Origin: Myxococcota bacterium | Lineage (GTDB): Bacteria > Myxococcota_A > UBA9160 > UBA6930 | Reading direction: 5' to 3' | Assembly: GCA_965223705.1 (NCBI GenBank) | Contig: OZ245015.1 | Location: forward strand, 4,352,001-4,416,000 | DNA length: 64,000 nucleotides | In this document: positions 42,573-48,981 of the stretch, piece by piece | Numbering within the stretch: position 1 is the first letter of the stretch | Layout of the letters: every line of letters begins with the position of its first letter | Made by a program: the position numbers and the translations under genes | The notes under the pieces: generated by a model | Told to the model about the DNA's origin: nothing | The model's input: only the letters and a program-made list of their open reading frames with translations | Database searches by the model: none

Positions 42573-44228
42573 CTAGCAGCACCCCGAGGAGCACGATGCC
42601 GCGCTCGGTCGGTACGAGCGCTCGGACACTCCGGAAGAGCCGCCCAACTCGCTCGCCGTCGGAGCGCTTGCTGTCGCAGTGCTCGCGCGCTTTCCGTGGC
42701 CCGCCGTCTCGACGCCTCGCGTCGCGATGTGGAAGTCACTGTCGCCGACCGAAAAGTCGATTTCGATAGCGTCATCGCCTACCGAACGCCAACGGGGGTA
42801 GGGTTCATCCTCACAGAAAACCCGAACGTTACGAGCCGACGCCAGCTGAGTCACGCGGAACGAGGAATCGCTTCCGCGTTTTGAAGGCGTCGCCGCATAC
42901 GTGGTCACGTGAAGCTCGCCAGTCTCGTGTTCGTTCCACGCGCGAGAAATACCGACGGTCGGATAGTCGACTCCCTCGAGCGTGGGCTCCTGGAACCGAC
43001 GCGCATGGTCTGGATTGTTGAAGACCCGCCGCCAGGAGCCCGGTTCGCCCGCTTCACTGAGCATCAGAAGAGAAGCGAGCTGTCCGCGGGGCCAGTCTTC
43101 TCCCGTTCCGAACCAGTACCCGAAGCGGGAATTGTCCTCCCCGAACTGACGCGGTTCCGAAATTCGATCGATGCACTCGGCCAAGCGTTTCTCAGTGGTG
43201 TCGTCGCCCACTTCTCGTGCGACAAGATGGCCGATTACCAGCAAGCGCGGGTCGAGCGATGCGAGCACCGGCTTGGCCGGATCACTCCAACCCACCAAGC
43301 GCGCGCCTTCTCGGTACAGAAACTCACCGAACTCCGGGTGTTGCGGCAACACGTAGGGTGTGATCAGCAAAGCGGCGAGCCCGGAGGCCTGCCCTGGGAA
43401 CTGGCAGAGAACTTCTTCGAGGGGGTCGTAGTAGAGCGGAAAAGAAGCGAGCCCACCCTTCGAATCGAGCTTCAGGTAATGCGCCTTTGCGAACTCGACC
43501 CAATCGTCGTAGACACCGTGGAAAGCATTGCCCGAAACCTGATCGTAGAGTTTGAGACCCAACCCGGCCGACGAGACACAGGCGGGCCAGATCTTCGTGT
43601 TCTCGCAGTGCGGCCCCTGCGGTCGATCCTTCCACTGCGCGTTCAAGAACTCGGCGATCCGATAGTGCGTCCACTCGAAGGTCTGCTCGCGATAACCGGC
43701 GACCCGAAACGGCGCTTCCCATTTTTCATCGCCCGCGACGTAGCGGTAGATCGACAACAGCAGGTTGAACCAACCGCGAAAGAACAGGTTTCCGTCGGAG
43801 CCGATGGGGTCGGGCTGAAGCCCCCACGGTTCGACGCCGTTGCCCGTCCAGCCGGGCGGGTCGTACCGGCCCTGCAAGTGCGGGGGTAGGTACGCCAACC
43901 ACTCCGGCGGGTAGTCGGCTTGATGCGGGTCGTGACCGATCAACGTGAGCCAATCAACGGCGGCCCAGAAACTCGTGTGCCGGCCGACCAGCTCGTCGGC
44001 GATTCGGGTGTACACCTCGCGCCACGCGGGCGTTCGATCGGCGAGGACGGGAAGGATGTAGCTCGTCTCCGCGAGATCGAAGCGCGGGAAGCTGCACATC
44101 GGCGCCGTGCTCGTCTGATCCCACCAAGGATGAGGCGAACCCTCGGTCGACCAATCGTCTTCCGTTGTCGCTTTGTCCCATAGAAAGCGGAGCCAGCCCT
44201 GAACGCGAGGCGCGATCGCTTCGACCAT
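42573..44228 (-). CDS. Linalool dehydratase/isomerase (Ldi)-like protein
   Basis: DPI...GNLFFRG and GPHCENTKIWPAC resemble the Ldi DP..ENIMYKG and CE-x7-C segments; Cys-rich tail SCSSGCC. Confidence 0.6.
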   Translation of the reverse strand: MVEAIAPRVQGWLRFLWDKATTEDDWSTEGSPHPWWDQTSTAPMCSFPRFDLAETSYILPVLADRTPAWREVYTRIADELVGRHTSFWAAVDWLTLIGHDPHQADYPPEWLAYLPPHLQGRYDPPGWTGNGVEPWGLQPDPIGSDGNLFFRGWFNLLLSIYRYVAGDEKWEAPFRVAGYREQTFEWTHYRIAEFLNAQWKDRPQGPHCENTKIWPACVSSAGLGLKLYDQVSGNAFHGVYDDWVEFAKAHYLKLDSKGGLASFPLYYDPLEEVLCQFPGQASGLAALLITPYVLPQHPEFGEFLYREGARLVGWSDPAKPVLASLDPRLLVIGHLVAREVGDDTTEKRLAECIDRISEPRQFGEDNSRFGYWFGTGEDWPRGQLASLLMLSEAGEPGSWRRVFNNPDHARRFQEPTLEGVDYPTVGISRAWNEHETGELHVTTYAATPSKRGSDSSFRVTQLASARNVRVFCEDEPYPRWRSVGDDAIEIDFSVGDSDFHIATRGVETAGHGKRASTATASAPTASELGGSSGVSERSYRPSAASCSSGCC

Positions 44229-44788
44229 CAATACTCCGGTGCCCGCTGACCCGCGGCGACCCGAATCAACAAGAGCTTCGCTCGTTGCCGAGCCGCCGCC
44301 GACCAATTCGGATCGAGATCCGCCGCTGCCGCTTCTCGCGTGATCGACCGCGCAGCTTCGATGTCGTCACGCGGCCGGACGTACGCGCCGGGAAAGCGAT
44401 CCGGCTGCCGACGAAGCCGGGCCAACGGATTGGCCGCATCGATTCTCCCGAGGAACCACACGAAGAGCATCAGGTTGCCGTCGAGCCGGGCTGCTTTTCG
44501 CGACATCCCGTCGAGCAAGCGCTCGATGCCCTTCGAGGAGAGAAGAACCGCGAGCGCGTCGGAAGACGTTTTGAACCAGAGCCGCAAATCGGAATCGGAA
44601 GCGGCCCCCGACTCCGACACCATGGCCCGCGACACACTGCGGAACTGGCGAGCCACGCCGTCGTCTGTCTCGATCGTCACAGTCCGATCGGCGGAGAGCG
44701 CCGCGCGAAACGCGGGGCGGCTGCGACTCGCGTGCGTCAACAGCGCCCCGAGGGCGAAGAGCAGCGATCTGAGGACGAGACGGGCCAT
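44228..44788 (-). CDS. Hypothetical protein with SCP2/sterol-carrier-like N-terminal fold
   Basis: TVTIETDDG.ARQF...DLRLWF...ARLDGNLML; TGATG coupling to the Ldi-like gene. Confidence 0.5.
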   Translation of the reverse strand: MARLVLRSLLFALGALLTHASRSRPAFRAALSADRTVTIETDDGVARQFRSVSRAMVSESGAASDSDLRLWFKTSSDALAVLLSSKGIERLLDGMSRKAARLDGNLMLFVWFLGRIDAANPLARLRRQPDRFPGAYVRPRDDIEAARSITREAAAADLDPNWSAAARQRAKLLLIRVAAGQRAPEY

Positions 44789-44821: not shown

Positions 44822-45604
44822 TCACCCCATCAACCCGGGGTTCGCGCCACCGTCGATGGTGATGTTGGCGCCGTGGATAAAAGCGGCTCGAGGCGAAGCG
44901 AGAAACAGGGCGAGATCCGCCACTTCTTTCGGTTCGCCCGCGCGCCCGAGTGGTGTCATATTGCGGAGCGTTTCTTCGCGTGAGCCCCCGCCCGGCGCCA
45001 ACGTGTCGAGAAACAGCAGAAGCCGCTCGGTCAAGATCGGCCCGGGATTGATCCCCACCACGCGGACCGACGCTTCTGCCCCCTCGTCCGCCAGCGCTTT
45101 CGTAAAGTGATTGAGGGCAGCGTTCGCGGCGCCTCCCACCATGTACCCGGCAACCGGCCGCAATCCGCCGGTTCCGATCACATTCACGATCACGCCCCCT
45201 CCCTGTGTCTTCATGATGGGGAGCACGGCTCGCGCCATCCGCATGTAGCCGAAGAACTTGAGCGTCCAATCTTCGAGCCACGCTTCATCGGTAATCTCGA
45301 GAAAGCTTCCAGGTCGTGCGCTGCCGGCGTTGTTAATCAGAATGTCGATGCTACCGAAGCGGTCCCGAACGCTTTCGGCGACCCGGAGAATGTCGGCACC
45401 TTGTGTGAGATCCGCCGCGATACCCAACATGTTGTCGCGACCGCGGCCCGGTGCAGCGGCGATCGTTTCGTCGATCCCCTCCTGCCCGCGGGCGCAAATC
45501 GCGACCGACGCGCCTTCTTCGACGAATCCCCATGCCGTAGCGCGTCCTATTCCTTGACTCCCGCCGGTGACGAGCACCACTTTGCCTTCGAGACCGAGTT
45601 GCAT
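44822..45604 (-). CDS. Short-chain dehydrogenase/reductase
   Basis: VTGGSQGIG, DILINNAG, INPGPILT, PLGRAGEP.EVA, IDGG; YxxxK not canonical (GGAANAAL). Confidence 0.9.
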   Translation of the reverse strand: MQLGLEGKVVLVTGGSQGIGRATAWGFVEEGASVAICARGQEGIDETIAAAPGRGRDNMLGIAADLTQGADILRVAESVRDRFGSIDILINNAGSARPGSFLEITDEAWLEDWTLKFFGYMRMARAVLPIMKTQGGGVIVNVIGTGGLRPVAGYMVGGAANAALNHFTKALADEGAEASVRVVGINPGPILTERLLLFLDTLAPGGGSREETLRNMTPLGRAGEPKEVADLALFLASPRAAFIHGANITIDGGANPGLMG

Positions 45605-45670
45605 ACGTCCTCCTAAACGCTCGCGCCCCACCGCGCGCTATGCTTTAACGCAGCGACCAGGGAGATCACA

Positions 45671-46183
45671 ATGCCGCTCCGATTCGCCGAAGGCGACGTT
45701 TTTCCCGAATTCGAACTCGAGGATCACCGAGGTCAAAAGATCACGTGCGATTCCCTGATGGATGGCAAGCCGACGATCCTCGTTTTCTTCCGCGGCCCTT
45801 GGTGACCCAAGTGACAGGTCCAACTGCAGGAACTGGTCGAGTTCCACCGTCGCACCGCTGTCGCCTACTGCCAAATCGCCGCTATCTCGGTCGATCCGCC
45901 CCGAGTTTTAGAAGCGTTTCGCGCCGGCCTGGGCGCGCCTTTCACGTTCCTGTCGGATCAAGAGCTCACGCTTACCGACGCCCTCGGGATTCGCGAAACC
46001 ACGGATCAACGCCACGGGCCTCTGCCCGTCCCGATGACCTTTGCCCTGCTGCCAGACCGACAAATTCATCGGGTCTTCAACGGTTGGTATTTCGTCGGGC
46101 GCCCGACTCCTGAGGAACTCCGCCAGACGATTCGTCAGCTGGTGGATGCAACGGTTTCTGATCTGGATTTTCGAGGCGACTAG
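45671..46183 (+). CDS. AhpC/TSA-type redoxin, predicted selenoprotein with UxxU motif (two in-frame TGA); not in the ORF track
   Basis: GGAG RBS plus ATG 45671; GDVFPEFELEDHRG...ILVFFRGPW-TGA(45803)-P-K-TGA(45812)-QVQL...AISVD...FTFLSD...PMTFAL...GRPTPEELR; otherwise open to TAG 46181. Confidence 0.85.
45829..45845 (+). promoter_or_regulatory. Candidate bacterial SECIS hairpin
   Basis: GGAACT-GGTCG-AGTTCC, a perfect 6-bp stem with G-starting loop, beginning 14 nt after the second TGA. Confidence 0.6.
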
Positions 46184-46215
46184 TTCGCCCGTTCCGAACG
46201 CAACGAGGAGCTCTC

Positions 46216-46632
46216 ATGGCGAATCGATCGATGACGGGGAGATGTCTATGCGGCGCTGTGACGTTCTCAGCCGAAGACGTCGAGCCGCATATTCACGCGT
46301 GCCACTGTGGCATGTGCCGACGCTGGTCCGGCGGTCCGGGCATGGCCGTCTCGGTGGGTTCGATCTCCTTCACCGGCGCAGACGAGCTCAGAACCTACGA
46401 CTCGTCGGAATGGGCGGAGCGCGGATTCTGCGGCGTGTGTGGCAGCAACCTCTTCTACAGGCTGAAAGAACAGGATCGGTACGTGGTTTGGAACGGCGCG
46501 CTGGATGATCCGACAGACTTTGAGCTCACCGGCGAGATCTACATCGATGAAAAACCGAGCTCCTACGATTTCGCCGGAGACCACCCGCGTCTCACCGGGC
46601 AAGAATTCTTGAAATCGGTGGGCATGGCCTGA
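46216..46632 (+). CDS. GFA (glutathione-dependent formaldehyde-activating/CENP-V) family protein
   Basis: GRCLCGAV, CHCGMCRR, ERGFCGVCGS. Confidence 0.93.
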   Translation: MANRSMTGRCLCGAVTFSAEDVEPHIHACHCGMCRRWSGGPGMAVSVGSISFTGADELRTYDSSEWAERGFCGVCGSNLFYRLKEQDRYVVWNGALDDPTDFELTGEIYIDEKPSSYDFAGDHPRLTGQEFLKSVGMA

Positions 46633-46680: not shown

Positions 46681-48981
46681 ATGAAAAGCAGCGCCCTCGT
46701 CACGCACTGGGGTCCGTTCGTCGTGGAAGCCGACGGAGACCGCGTCGTCTCGGTCCGCGGGCACGCTTCGGATCCCGACCCGTCGCCGATCGGTCAGTCT
46801 CTTCAACAAGCGACGGATTGCCGCGTCGAACGGCCGTCGATCCGACGCTCTTGGCTCGAAGACGGGCCCGGCGCGCGCACGGAACTACGCGGACGCGAGC
46901 CCTTTGTCGAGGTCAGCTGGAACGAGGCACTCGATCTCGTCGCGGGCGAGCTCGCGAGAGTTCGCGACGTCTACGGCCATACGTCGATCTACGGGGGGTC
47001 CTACGGCTGGTCGTCCGCGGGCCGCTTCCACATGTCCTCGGGCCAGATCACGCGTTTCTTCCGCATGTTCGGTGGCTGCACCGATGCGTGGGGGACGTAC
47101 TCTTCGTCCGCCGCGTCGGGGATCATTCCGTATGTCTTGGGGATCTCGTACCTGCAGGGCGTCGCCCAGCAGAGCTCGTGGTCGACGATTGCGGAGCACA
47201 CGGATCTCTTCGTGAGCTTCGGTGGATTGCGACTCACGAACACGCACGTGACGTACGGTGGCCAGGGACCCCATCACACGCGTGAATGGCTCATGCGTGC
47301 GCGCGATTCCGGTGTTTCGTTTCTCAACATCGGCCCGTTGCGGGACGATTTCGAGCCCGACCTCGGCGCGCGGTGGGTCCATCCGATCCCCGGCACGGAC
47401 GTCGCACTCATGGCGGCGCTTATTCACGCGTTGGTCGACGAGGGTCTCGCCGACCGCGCGTTTCTTCTCCGCCATTGCGTCGGCTGGGAACGTCTCGAGG
47501 CCTACATCCTGGGCACAACCGATGGAACGGCGAAAACCGCCGAATGGGCAGCAGCGATTACGGGGCTCGAAGCCGACGCGATTCGCGAGCTCGCACACGA
47601 AATGGCGAGCCGTCGGACGCTGATCAACCTCACCCTCGCCGTGCAGCGACAGGACCACGGGGAACAGAGCTATTGGATGGGCATCGCACTGGCCGCGGCT
47701 CTCGGCCAGGTCGGGCTCTCGGGCGGTGGGGTTGCGTTCACTTTCGGCGCCGCTGGCAATGTCGGAGCGGGTCAGACCCGCGCACGCGTGCCGGGGCTCC
47801 CGGTGCCCAAACCGGTTCCCGACATGACGACGATTTCGGTATCGCGCGTGGCGGAACTTCTGGAAGCGAATGGTGAGACCTTCCGCTGGAACGGTCGAGA
47901 AGACGTCTACCCGGACACCCGCCTCGTGTACTGGTGCGGCGGAAACGTGTTCCATCACCACCAAGATCTGAACCGCCTCCTTCGAGCGTGGCAACGCCCC
48001 GAGACGATCGTCGTTCACGAACCGTTCTGGACGCCCACCGCGAAACGCGCCGACGTCGTCTTCCCTGCGACGACGCCGCTCGAGCGCAGTGACCTCGGAG
48101 GTGGCGAAACCTTGCTGGCGCTGTCGCAACCCGTGCTCGAGCCGTATGGCGAAGCGCGTGACGACTACGCGATTTTTCACGGCCTCGCCGACCGGCTGGG
48201 TTTCGGAGAAACGTTCTCCGAAGGGCGGACCGCCGAAGAGTGGGTACGCCACCTCTACGAAGAATTTCGCAGCAACAACGAAGCCGCTCCGCCTCTCGAG
48301 CTGGCGCGCGAACAAGGCACGTTGCAGCACCGACATATGGCGCGGATGGGGGAGCCCTCACAGACCTTCCTCTCCGCCTTCCGCGCCGACCCGATCGCGA
48401 ACCCGCTCCCCACGCCGTCGGGTCGGATCGAGCTCTATTCCGAGACGATCGCCGGCTTCGGTTACGCCGATTGTCCCGGGCACCCCATCTGGCTTGAACC
48501 CTACGAACGGTTGGGTACGCCCGCCGCGGAACGTTTCCCGCTCCACCTGATCTCCAACCAACCAGCCGGGAGGTTGCACGGCCAGTACGACCACGGCGAG
48601 GTCAGCCAAGCGACGAAGGTCGCGGGCCGCGAGCCATGCCGCCTCCACCCGGATGACGCCGGTGCCCGCGGCATTCGAGACGGCGACGTCGTTCGTCTGT
48701 GGAACGACCGCGGCGCCTGCCTTGCCGGAGCGGTGCTGTCCGATGCTTTGATGCCAGGCGTTGTGCAGCTCAGTACCGGCGCGTGGTTTGACCCCGATGA
48801 GACAGGGCTTTGCAAACACGGAAACCCCAACGTTCTGACGCGCGACAAGGGCACCTCAAAGCTTTCTGAAGGCCCGAGCGCGCACACGTGCCTTGTGGAG
48901 GTCGAGCGTTTCGACGGCGACGTCCCGGCTGTGACGGCGTTCGATCCGCCCGCGTTTGCGAAGCGTTCCGCCCGACCGTGA
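46681..48981 (+). CDS. Bis-MGD molybdoenzyme, BisC/TorA/DorA S/N-oxide reductase type, cytoplasmic
   Basis: THWG, RG.EPFVEVSW.EA, YGGSYGWSSAGRFH, TYS (Ser ligand region), GGNVFHHHQD, HGNPNVLT.DKGTSKL; no Tat or Fe-S motif. Confidence 0.92.
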   Translation: MKSSALVTHWGPFVVEADGDRVVSVRGHASDPDPSPIGQSLQQATDCRVERPSIRRSWLEDGPGARTELRGREPFVEVSWNEALDLVAGELARVRDVYGHTSIYGGSYGWSSAGRFHMSSGQITRFFRMFGGCTDAWGTYSSSAASGIIPYVLGISYLQGVAQQSSWSTIAEHTDLFVSFGGLRLTNTHVTYGGQGPHHTREWLMRARDSGVSFLNIGPLRDDFEPDLGARWVHPIPGTDVALMAALIHALVDEGLADRAFLLRHCVGWERLEAYILGTTDGTAKTAEWAAAITGLEADAIRELAHEMASRRTLINLTLAVQRQDHGEQSYWMGIALAAALGQVGLSGGGVAFTFGAAGNVGAGQTRARVPGLPVPKPVPDMTTISVSRVAELLEANGETFRWNGREDVYPDTRLVYWCGGNVFHHHQDLNRLLRAWQRPETIVVHEPFWTPTAKRADVVFPATTPLERSDLGGGETLLALSQPVLEPYGEARDDYAIFHGLADRLGFGETFSEGRTAEEWVRHLYEEFRSNNEAAPPLELAREQGTLQHRHMARMGEPSQTFLSAFRADPIANPLPTPSGRIELYSETIAGFGYADCPGHPIWLEPYERLGTPAAERFPLHLISNQPAGRLHGQYDHGEVSQATKVAGREPCRLHPDDAGARGIRDGDVVRLWNDRGACLAGAVLSDALMPGVVQLSTGAWFDPDETGLCKHGNPNVLTRDKGTSKLSEGPSAHTCLVEVERFDGDVPAVTAFDPPAFAKRSARP

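What the first reader, a model, noticed from the sequence alone, without database searches (positions are those of the whole stretch)
45671..46183. Hidden redoxin gene with a double-selenocysteine UxxU active site (W-U-P-K-U)
Seen in sequence: GGAG RBS, ATG at 45671 and a 170-codon frame to TAG 46181, interrupted only by two TGAs at 45803 and 45812 (TGG TGA CCC AAG TGA CAG). Translation: MPLRFAEGDVFPEFELEDHRGQKITCDSLMDGKPTILVFFRGPW*PK*QVQLQELVEFHRRTAVAYCQIAAISVDPPRVLEAFRAGLGAPFTFLSD...PMTFALLPDRQIHRVFNGWYFVGRPTPEELR. Established: this is the AhpC/TSA thioredoxin-fold pattern (F.RG.WCP.C), and both TGAs sit exactly on the two Cys positions. TGA encodes Sec in bacteria with SelABCD. UxxU (diselenide-forming) motifs are rare, with SelL as the classic example. 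Inference: two independent nonsense mutations hitting exactly the two catalytic codons while the rest stays intact is unlikely, so this is probably a two-Sec selenoprotein that gene callers miss. From memory, close relatives carry CPK[D/E] rather than CxxC, which would make the second Sec more unusual; this needs checking.
Basis: partly seen in the sequence, partly recalled or inferred. Interest (0 to 1): 0.93.

Follow-up and report, generated by a model that had tools for sequence, protein, structure and literature searches.

The report
Two-selenocysteine redoxin gene missed by annotation
This is very probably a real gene for a small redox protein whose two active-site residues are both selenocysteine, read from two nearby TGA "stop" codons; the type is rare but already catalogued, and gene finders cut it short every time.

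Summary
ATG 45671 to TAG 46183 is a 170-codon frame broken only by TGA at 45803 and 45812 (W-U-P-K-U). It is an AhpC/TSA-fold protein. The genome has selA, selB, selD and tRNA-Sec, and three other Sec redoxin genes.

Orthologues at 59-72% identity in six other genomes and 26 metagenome loci all keep both TGAs (UPKU; one UGKU). None has Cys at either site. The frame after the TGAs is under strong purifying selection.

A 6-bp hairpin at 45829-45845 has an invariant G-U in its loop. It is paired in 99% of cells across 32 sequences, with two compensatory pair changes. It starts 14 nt after UGA2 and 23 nt after UGA1. It is the likely single SECIS for both codons.

The UPKU clade may be sister to them rather than nested among them, so descent from a CxxC ancestor is as likely.

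Reviews already list PF00578 "Prx-like thiol:disulfide oxidoreductase, UxxC/UxxU, 1-2 Sec", and SelL is a known UxxU protein. This scan also found the same kind on other DNA (e1-2138069). It is a new member of a known kind, and public protein sets hold it only as truncated fragments. Its function is untested.

The parts
45660..45664 (+). Shine-Dalgarno-like GGGAG, 6 nt before the start codon
   Evidence: Read. The two same-genus orthologues have GGAGG at a similar distance.
45671..46183 (+). Coding sequence of the two-Sec redoxin (170 aa plus TAG), AhpC/TSA thioredoxin fold
   Evidence: AlphaFold2 model with mean pLDDT 92.6. Best Foldseek PDB matches are Bcp4 3hjp (TMq 0.82), BcpB and ResA. 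The start M-[PA]-L is shared by the 24 aligned orthologues.
45803..45805 (+). UGA1 = Sec45. It occupies the position of the N-terminal Cys of a Trx-type CxxC, directly before helix 46-62.
   Evidence: The column is invariant in 32 distinct sequences.
45812..45814 (+). UGA2 = Sec48. It occupies the position of the second Cys of CxxC (the peroxidatic Cys position of Prx), and is D/E in the nearest non-Sec relatives.
   Evidence: The column is invariant in 32 distinct sequences.
45829..45845 (+). Candidate bacterial SECIS hairpin GGAACU-GGUCG-AGUUCC. The stem is 45829-45834 with 45840-45845, and the loop is 45835-45839 with invariant G45836 and U45837.
   Evidence: 99.0% of 192 cells are paired. 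Two pairs show compensatory changes (AU to GC in 3 sequences, CG to UA in 5). The slid controls pair 21-55%. RNAalifold predicts the same six pairs. Synonymous codon identity is raised at codons 44-58.

Best explanation
The gene encodes a cytoplasmic, stand-alone thioredoxin-fold redoxin of the AhpC/TSA superfamily. Both active-site residues are selenocysteine (W-U45-P-K-U48).

Shown here: the frame, the conservation of both UGAs, coding constraint after them, a conserved hairpin with covariation, and a complete Sec machinery.

Inferred decoding: SelB carrying Sec-tRNA(Sec) binds the single hairpin at 45829-45845 and delivers Sec first at UGA1, where the loop begins 29 nt downstream. Three codons later it delivers Sec at UGA2, where the loop begins 20 nt downstream. 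The 20-nt spacing matches the 17-21 nt seen in this genome's single-Sec genes.

Inferred chemistry: Sec45 sits at the N-cap of helix 46-62 and acts as the attacking selenolate. Sec48, in the first helical turn, resolves the intermediate into an intramolecular diselenide. The protein would thus cycle as a diselenol/diselenide oxidoreductase of very low potential. Pro121 is invariant and aligns with a Pro of ResA. This points to a thiol-disulfide-oxidoreductase mechanism rather than a peroxiredoxin one. The substrate and the reductant are unknown.
For: The frame and both TGAs are confirmed.

Sec machinery in the genome: selA 486 bits, selB 320.7 bits, selD 269.6 bits, all over their cut-offs. 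tRNA-Sec scores 78.2 bits and has anticodon tca. TGA ends 36 of 68 long frames in the window, so it is an ordinary stop here. The genome has three more Sec redoxin genes: one UPYC and two TPGU.

Orthologues: six other genomes at 62-72% identity all carry UPKU. Two of the six loci repeat the two. Among 80 kept metagenome loci, 25 are UPKU and 1 is UGKU among intact orthologues that cover the site, and none has Cys there.

Selection: dN/dS after the TGAs is 0.058. 78 of 170 columns are invariant in 7 genomes, and most of them lie after the TGAs.

Hairpin. The only 2 unpaired cells of 192 lie in the two broken copies.

Fold: pLDDT 92.6, with helix 46-62 starting directly after residue 45. Best structural matches are Bcp/PrxQ and ResA. 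In the ResA alignment, P121 aligns with the Pro of P-T-T-F, and P121 is invariant in 53 sequences.
Against: There is no direct evidence of Se incorporation or of expression.

Rfam has no matching SECIS family for this stretch. The hairpin has only 6 bp. Folding of the window sequence alone is unremarkable (z = -0.50).

The compensatory changes sit in codons that also change amino acid (L55F, F58L), and the sequences are related, so the shuffle control overstates the support.

UGA1 lies 9 nt further from the hairpin than any single-Sec gene examined in this genome (three genes only).

Two lineages carry broken copies, so the gene is dispensable in some organisms.

No gene neighbour is conserved that could suggest a partner or substrate.
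Confidence: 0.85

Rival explanations
1. It is a pseudogene: a former CxxC redoxin gene inactivated by two nonsense mutations.
For: Gene callers treat it this way. Public protein sets hold only C-terminal fragments: all 120 listed proteins are 97-123 aa. Decayed copies do exist: L084/L086 have TAA at codon 54, and L101/L102 have three frameshifts.
Against: Both TGAs are kept in 7 genomes and 26 intact metagenome loci at 59-72% identity, with saturated synonymous sites and dN/dS 0.058 after the TGAs. No other stop or frameshift occurs in those copies. The real pseudogenes look different: they carry extra lesions and broken hairpin pairs.
Confidence: 0.01
2. The UGAs are read through, but not as Sec at one or both sites. 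Possibilities are near-cognate Trp or Cys insertion, or Sec at UGA2 only, given the long spacing of UGA1 from the hairpin.
For: UGA1 is 23 nt from the stem, against 14 nt for UGA2. The three single-Sec genes of this genome have loops 17-21 nt after UGA, against 29 nt for UGA1. No Se data exist.
Against: If Cys or Trp served at position 45, TGY or TGG variants should appear among orthologues, and none does in 32 distinct sequences. The flanking relatives have U or C at this position. As I recall Zhang and Gladyshev's bSECISearch model, it allows 16-37 nt between UGA and the apical loop, which covers both codons. As I recall Shchedrina et al. 2007, whose text I could not read, it reports one SECIS for two Sec in bacterial SelL.
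Confidence: 0.05
3. It is a Sec-type peroxiredoxin, a peroxidase with Sec48 as the peroxidatic residue, and not a Trx-like oxidoreductase.
For: Sec48 aligns with the Prx peroxidatic position (TxxU against UxxC in the table). The best fold matches include Bcp4, BcpB, PrxQ and AhpE. NCBIfam gives a weak match to thiol peroxidase PRK09437, 39.3 bits against a cut-off of 140.
Against: The Thr of the Prx T-x-x-C motif is replaced by Sec45. The position three residues before the T-F strand, where I recall the catalytic Arg of Prx, holds the invariant Pro121, as in ResA. The nearest relatives lack any Cys or Sec at position 48.
Confidence: 0.15

Closest known systems
Prx-like thiol:disulfide oxidoreductase selenoproteins (PF00578; UxxC, UxxU; 1-2 Sec), as listed in the tables of PMC9312934 and PMC13188914 (passages seen)
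   Same: It matches PF00578 above the cut-off. It has the R-G-x-W-U-P-x-[CU] active-site context. It has a UxxU motif with two Sec. It is predicted from sequence only.
   Different: In the tree, the UPFC and UPYC selenoproteins of related genomes fall outside a clade with SH-aLRT 100. That clade holds the UPKU group together with the C-P-[KR]-[DE] proteins. The reviews give no sequences or details for their UxxU members, so I cannot tell whether this subfamily is what they list.
SelL, the UxxU diselenide selenoprotein of fish, invertebrates and marine bacteria (Shchedrina et al. 2007, cited through the passage in PMC2397514; original not readable), and NCBIfam NF040769 'SelL-related redox protein'
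   Same: It is a Prx-like thioredoxin fold with a UxxU motif. NF040769 is the best NCBIfam match.
   Different: It scores 41.1 bits against a cut-off of 120, so it is not a member. No match in the genome reaches the cut-off. The GOS 'Prx-like 2' sequences, the UxxU-bearing family of that paper, have a different active-site context (F-T-U-G-T-C). The string UPKU does not occur in the two GOS supplementary files held.
Uncharacterised AhpC/TSA-family proteins with C-P-[KR]-[DE], some fused to a C-terminal cold-shock domain
   Same: These are the closest full-length homologues at 36-49% identity. They form one clade with the UPKU group, and share R41, G42, P46, K47 and P121.
   Different: They have Cys in place of Sec45 and Asp or Glu in place of Sec48. 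Many are longer, at 184-329 aa. No function is known for them either.
ResA/TlpA-type thiol-disulfide oxidoreductases (PDB 1st9, 1su9, 3c71)
   Same: They are the best match by sequence among solved structures (E = 2.4e-7) and among the best by fold (TMt 0.82-0.88). The CxxC aligns with UPKU, and the Pro before the T-F strand is shared.
   Different: As I recall, ResA is membrane-anchored and extracytoplasmic. Here the domain starts at residue 7, which leaves no room for a signal peptide or anchor. Identity is only about 20%.

Membership tests
Bacterial selenoprotein gene (SelB/SECIS-dependent UGA recoding) | In-frame UGA conserved among orthologues and aligned with Cys or a redox residue in homologues | tested here: met
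   Both UGAs are invariant in 32 distinct sequences. Position 45 is C or U in relatives. Position 48 is C in UxxC/CxxC relatives and D/E in the nearest ones.
Bacterial selenoprotein gene (SelB/SECIS-dependent UGA recoding) | Stem-loop shortly downstream of the UGA with G/U in the apical loop (model recalled from the bacterial SECIS literature) | tested here: met
   A 6-bp hairpin at 45829-45845 is 99% paired, has 2 covarying pairs and has an invariant G-U in the loop. The loop begins 20 nt after UGA2 and 29 nt after UGA1. Rfam holds no matching family.
Bacterial selenoprotein gene (SelB/SECIS-dependent UGA recoding) | selA, selB, selD and tRNA-Sec in the same genome | tested here: met
   all are over their curated cut-offs, and ARAGORN finds tRNA-SeC with anticodon tca.
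Bacterial selenoprotein gene (SelB/SECIS-dependent UGA recoding) | Selenium actually incorporated | not testable with these tools
   This needs 75Se labelling or mass spectrometry.
Prx-like thiol:disulfide oxidoreductase selenoproteins (PF00578, UxxC/UxxU) | PF00578 domain with Sec at the first position of a Trx-like xxC/xxU motif | tested here: met
   PF00578 scores 76.5 bits against a cut-off of 26. The motif is W-U-P-K-U.
Prx-like thiol:disulfide oxidoreductase selenoproteins (PF00578, UxxC/UxxU) | Groups with the UxxC members in a tree | tested here: not met
   The UPFC and UPYC clades lie outside the SH-aLRT-100 clade of UPKU plus CPK[DE] (quick tree of 137 rows). The review family is defined by domain and motif, not by a tree, so this does not exclude membership as the reviews define it.
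SelL-related redox protein (NCBIfam NF040769) | Score at or above the curated cut-off of 120 bits | tested here: not met
   41.1 bits. The genome search gives 24.8 bits at this locus.
Peroxiredoxin (Prx/BCP) | P-x-x-x-T-x-x-C motif and a catalytic Arg (features recalled) | tested here: not met
   Sec45 stands where the Thr would be (TxxU against UxxC in the table). The invariant Pro121 stands three residues before T-F, where I recall the Arg. PRK09437 scores 39.3 bits against a cut-off of 140.
ResA/TlpA/DsbE extracytoplasmic thiol-disulfide oxidoreductases | N-terminal signal peptide or membrane anchor; family score over the cut-off | tested here: not met
   The domain begins at residue 7. ResA PRK03147 scores 23.6 bits against 170, and DsbE scores 16-18 bits against 123-359. 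No signal-peptide predictor was run.

The most novel reading that the evidence does not exclude
This may be an obligate diselenide redoxin family. No sequence seen, in seven genomes and about 30 metagenome loci, has Cys at either site. It is sister to, or derived from, a monothiol C-x-x-[D/E] family rather than from the classical UxxC Prx-like selenoproteins. Its two UGAs, 9 nt apart, would be decoded through one minimal 6-bp SECIS at two different spacings. If so, it is a distinct, unnamed selenoprotein family with chemistry that Cys cannot replace, such as a very low-potential couple or a selenium-specific ligand site. It would also be a natural bacterial system for studying how SelB serves two closely spaced UGAs.
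Probability: 0.3. Interest if true: 0.65.

Novelty: new member of a known kind. Interest (0 to 1): 0.5.

Why it matters
Annotation is the practical point. This widespread family appears in public protein sets only as C-terminal fragments named hypothetical protein, redoxin or peroxiredoxin: all 120 best entries are 97-123 aa. The active site is missing from every one of them, and counts of selenoproteins in these lineages are too low.

Biologically, UxxU proteins are rare. This subfamily gives a well-sampled bacterial case with strict conservation of both Sec residues, a simple SECIS with covariation, and close C-x-x-[D/E] relatives for comparison. That makes two questions testable: what a diselenide couple does that a disulfide or selenenylsulfide cannot, and how one bacterial SECIS serves two UGAs at different distances.

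Tried and rejected
- **Rfam.** Scanning 45600-46250 at E up to 10 gave only a chance match to a viral stem-loop on the other strand.
- **Single-sequence folding.** Folding 45795-45880 alone gave no signal (z = -0.50). The support for the hairpin comes from the alignment.
- **Conserved neighbours.** None was found. Flanking genes differ from locus to locus: SDR, GFA and a molybdopterin oxidoreductase here; ABC-F and luciferase-like, exonuclease, cupin, alanine racemase, TauE, enoyl-CoA hydratase, GST, NifU-rhodanese and HIT elsewhere (26 flanking ORFs from 14 loci plus 4 from the window).
- **Expression.** No RNA holder is listed among the public runs. The four holders are from one study, are kept as contigs and may be the source of this DNA. 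They add little independent support.
- **Alternative genetic code (TGA as sense).** Rejected, because TGA ends 36 of 68 long frames in the window, and one orthologue, L084/L086, ends on TGA itself.
- **Independent translation of the C-terminal part.** Rejected for this genome, because there is no in-frame start codon between codon 49 and codon 122.
- **Direction of change at position 48 (D/E to Sec, or Cys to Sec).** Not resolved. The free quick tree gives a three-way fork. The tree with all D/E forms held together is 26.6 log-likelihood units better, with p-AU 0.86.
- **Shchedrina et al. 2007.** The paper could not be read. What I say about its content is recalled, or taken from the passage in PMC2397514.
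- **Not used.** A complex prediction and the protein atlas were not used.

Full report
**1. The observation**

The window carries GGGAG at 45660-45664 and ATG at 45671. A 170-codon frame runs from there to TAG 46181-46183. Its only interruptions are TGA 45803-45805 and TGA 45812-45814, in the context TGG TGA CCC AAG TGA CAG. Read with TGA as U, the product carries F-F-R-G-P-W-U-P-K-U. It matches Pfam AhpC-TSA at 2.3e-21 (76.5 bits, cut-off 26) and Redoxin at 1.6e-14. Table 11 gives no in-frame ORF of 50 aa or more after the second TGA. The first in-frame start codon after it is ATG at codon 122.

**2. Can this organism insert selenocysteine?**

- The genome is 4.56 Mb in 2 contigs and 95% complete.
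- selA scores 486 bits, selB 320.7 bits and selD 269.6 bits, each over its curated cut-off.
- A tRNA-Sec scores 78.2 bits, and ARAGORN reads it as tRNA-SeC with anticodon tca.
- TGA is an ordinary stop here: it ends 36 of 68 stop-to-stop frames of 300 or more codons in the window.
- Three further redoxin genes have one in-frame TGA at the catalytic position. One is R-G-V-W-U-P-Y-C, and two are peroxiredoxins with T-P-G-U.

**3. Are both TGAs conserved?**

*Related genomes.* A read-through search of 61 related genomes found full-length orthologues in the two genomes of the same genus. They are about 71% identical and both carry UPKU.

*Genome collection.* A scan returned six full-length orthologues at 62-72% identity, all UPKU. 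Two of them repeat the same-genus pair, so the total is seven genomes including this one. The record titles name a Deltaproteobacteria MAG, a MAG titled uncultured Spirochaetales bacterium, two Myxococcota MAGs, an unclassified bacterium and a SAR324 MAG.

*Metagenome contigs.* The scan found 394 relatives and kept 80.

- Among orthologue-level loci covering the site (55% identity or more), 25 are UPKU and 1 is UGKU.
- Two near-identical loci (L101/L102) are UGRU. They are broken by three frameshifts.
- Two identical loci (L084/L086) are UPKU with an extra TAA at codon 54.
- Four more orthologue-level loci are partial and do not reach the site (L095, L096, L104, L105).
- No sequence has Cys, or any other residue, at either position.

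*Phylum sample.* In an even sample of 400 other genomes of the phylum, the orthologue was found in 3, all of one family. Both matches that cover the site have two TGAs. It was not found in the 10 sampled genomes of the window's own family outside its genus. The distribution is therefore patchy.

**4. Is the downstream part coding?**

- Between the two same-genus orthologues, dN/dS is 0.050 before the TGAs and 0.058 after them.
- Against the window copy, synonymous sites are saturated (pS about 0.8). pN is 0.17 after the TGAs and 0.41 before them.
- In the seven-genome alignment, 78 of 170 columns are invariant. Most lie after the TGAs, including the long runs H-G-P-L-P-V-P and G-R-P-T-P-E-E-L-R.

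The pseudogene reading does not survive these results.

**5. SECIS**

I aligned 75 nt, starting 3 nt before UGA1, from all 32 distinct sequences. Thirty-seven were found and five were exact duplicates.

- A 6-bp hairpin lies at window 45829-45845: GGAACU, loop GGUCG, AGUUCC. It is paired in 99.0% of 192 cells.
- Two pairs keep pairing through changes on both sides: A-U to G-C in 3 sequences, and C-G to U-A in 5 sequences.
- Sliding the 3' partner by 1-3 columns drops pairing to 21-55%.
- RNAalifold predicts the same six pairs, and no others, without being told.
- Loop positions 45836 (G) and 45837 (U) are invariant.
- The only two unpaired cells belong to the two broken copies.
- Among same-amino-acid pairs, codon identity is 0.66-0.75 at codons 44-58 and 0.41-0.46 elsewhere. 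That fits a constraint at the RNA level.

Caveats apply. The stem is short, the sequences are related, and the covarying bases lie in codons that also change amino acid. Rfam has no matching family, and the single sequence folds unremarkably.

The stem begins 14 nt after UGA2 and 23 nt after UGA1. The loop begins 20 nt after UGA2 and 29 nt after UGA1. In the three single-Sec genes of this genome, I read hairpin loops beginning 17-21 nt after the UGA (the third was read by eye from the printed sequence). UGA2 is thus at the usual distance and UGA1 is 9 nt beyond it. As I recall the published bacterial SECIS search model, it allows 16-37 nt, which covers both.

**6. Fold and active site**

An AlphaFold2 model built from a 53-sequence alignment has mean pLDDT 92.6 and pTM 0.89. 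Helix 46-62 starts directly after residue 45. Sec45 therefore sits at the helix N-cap and Sec48 in the first turn, as in CxxC thioredoxin-fold proteins.

- Foldseek's best PDB matches are Bcp4 (3hjp, TMq 0.82), BcpB, ResA and PrxQ/AhpE-type peroxiredoxins.
- By sequence, the best solved relative is ResA at E = 2.4e-7. Its C-x-x-C aligns with U-P-K-U, and its P-T-T-F aligns with P121-M-T-F.
- P121 is invariant in all 53 aligned sequences, as are R41, G42, L94 and D96.
- A Pro at this place is the hallmark I recall for thiol-disulfide oxidoreductases. Peroxiredoxins have their catalytic Arg there and a Thr where Sec45 stands.

I therefore favour a diselenol/diselenide oxidoreductase over a peroxidase. 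This is an inference. The domain starts at residue 7, which leaves no room for a signal peptide. Cys67 is frequent among orthologues but not invariant.

**7. Relatives**

*Representatives.* A full HMMER pass over 1.84 billion cluster representatives gave 3856 hits at E up to 0.001 and 8 at E up to 1e-30. The best hit is a 116-aa fragment covering residues 55-169. The 150 listed representatives gave 123 alignment rows covering the site: 62 CxxE, 45 CxxD, 8 CxxC and 8 others. The motif is typically R-G-x-[FWY]-C-P-[KR]-[DE]. Of 10 representatives scanned against Pfam, 3 carry a C-terminal cold-shock domain.

*Tree.* A quick IQ-TREE was built from 137 rows, with the two active-site columns removed.

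- All 32 UxxU rows form one clade (SH-aLRT 99).
- That clade lies inside a clade of 88 rows (SH-aLRT 100), together with the C-x-x-[DE] proteins.
- The UPFC/UPYC selenoproteins and the CxxC proteins fall outside it.
- Within the 88 rows the fork is unresolved.
- A tree that holds all D/E-type rows together is 26.6 log-likelihood units better than the free tree, with p-AU 0.86.

The UPKU clade may therefore be the sister of the D/E family. In that case both Sec codons could descend from the TGY codons of a CxxC ancestor by single-base changes. I consider that as likely as a D/E-to-Sec replacement.

**8. Annotation state**

In the 5.8-billion-protein collection, 261 proteins match at E up to 1e-20. 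The 120 best are all 97-123 aa and cover 57-71% of the query. Where they are named, the names are hypothetical protein, redoxin domain-containing protein or peroxiredoxin. No full-length form appears among them. Gene callers consistently start after the second TGA.

**9. What is known**

- Two reviews list [quoted passage not shown] among predicted prokaryotic selenoproteins (PMC9312934 and PMC13188914; passages seen).
- The GOS paper reports UxxU sequences in its "Prx-like 2" family (PMC2398784; passages seen). Its supplementary sequence file shows that family to be different (F-T-U-G-T-C with a hydrophobic N-terminus). The file holds no UPKU.
- SelL is described as a diselenide protein of fish, invertebrates and marine bacteria in a passage of PMC2397514. 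I could not read the original paper.
- NCBIfam's SelL-related model is the best NCBIfam match, but at 41.1 bits against a cut-off of 120.
- A full-text search for "UxxU" found 35 papers. Among the 25 listed I recognised five by title as selenoprotein papers. I read passages of three of them, and none describes this subfamily.
- This scan has already reported the same kind of gene on another genome (e1-2138069), with the same conclusion.

**10. Verdict**

This is a real two-Sec selenoprotein gene with a single SECIS, supported strongly by comparative evidence and not at all yet by experiment. It belongs to a catalogued kind, UxxU thioredoxin-fold selenoproteins of the AhpC/TSA superfamily. It is a distinct, strictly UxxU subfamily next to the C-x-x-[D/E] proteins. 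I rate it a new member of a known kind, with interest 0.5.

Noticed in passing
L084:605-1117 and L086:1501-2013 (metagenome loci): An otherwise intact UPKU orthologue carries an in-frame TAA at codon 54 (GAA to TAA). The change lies inside the 5' arm of the SECIS stem and also breaks one pair. Two contigs hold the identical sequence. It is probably a recent inactivation.
   Followed up: partly
L101:1441-2010 and L102:1-520: A diverged copy with U-G-R-U is split over three reading frames, and its hairpin has an A-A mismatch. It is a decayed pseudogene of the family.
   Followed up: partly
G000:C1:3486010-3486477 (L147), 3203687-3203980 (L150), 4048811-4049086 (L151): The same genome has three other redoxin genes with one in-frame TGA: a Prx-like R-G-V-W-U-P-Y-C and two peroxiredoxins with T-P-G-U. 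Each has a hairpin whose loop begins 17-21 nt after the TGA.
   Followed up: partly
P0004, P0007, P0027 (representatives of the C-P-[KR]-[DE] relatives): Some of the nearest non-Sec relatives fuse the AhpC/TSA domain to a C-terminal cold-shock (CSD) nucleic-acid-binding domain. That is an unusual pairing for a redoxin.
   Followed up: no
window 46216-46632 (+), 46681-48981 (+), 44822-45631 (-), 42573-44306 (-): The neighbours are a GFA-family protein, a molybdopterin oxidoreductase, a short-chain dehydrogenase and a distant linalool-dehydratase-like protein. The last belongs to a cluster already reported by this scan (e1-2089186). None of them is conserved next to the UPKU gene in other genomes.
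   Followed up: partly
G014:C1:1621351-1621833, G029:C156:319-795, L042: Other redoxin paralogues in genomes of the same family or order show two in-frame TGAs at 27-28% identity to the query. In L042 the active site is UPYC, so the second TGA lies elsewhere in the protein.
   Followed up: no
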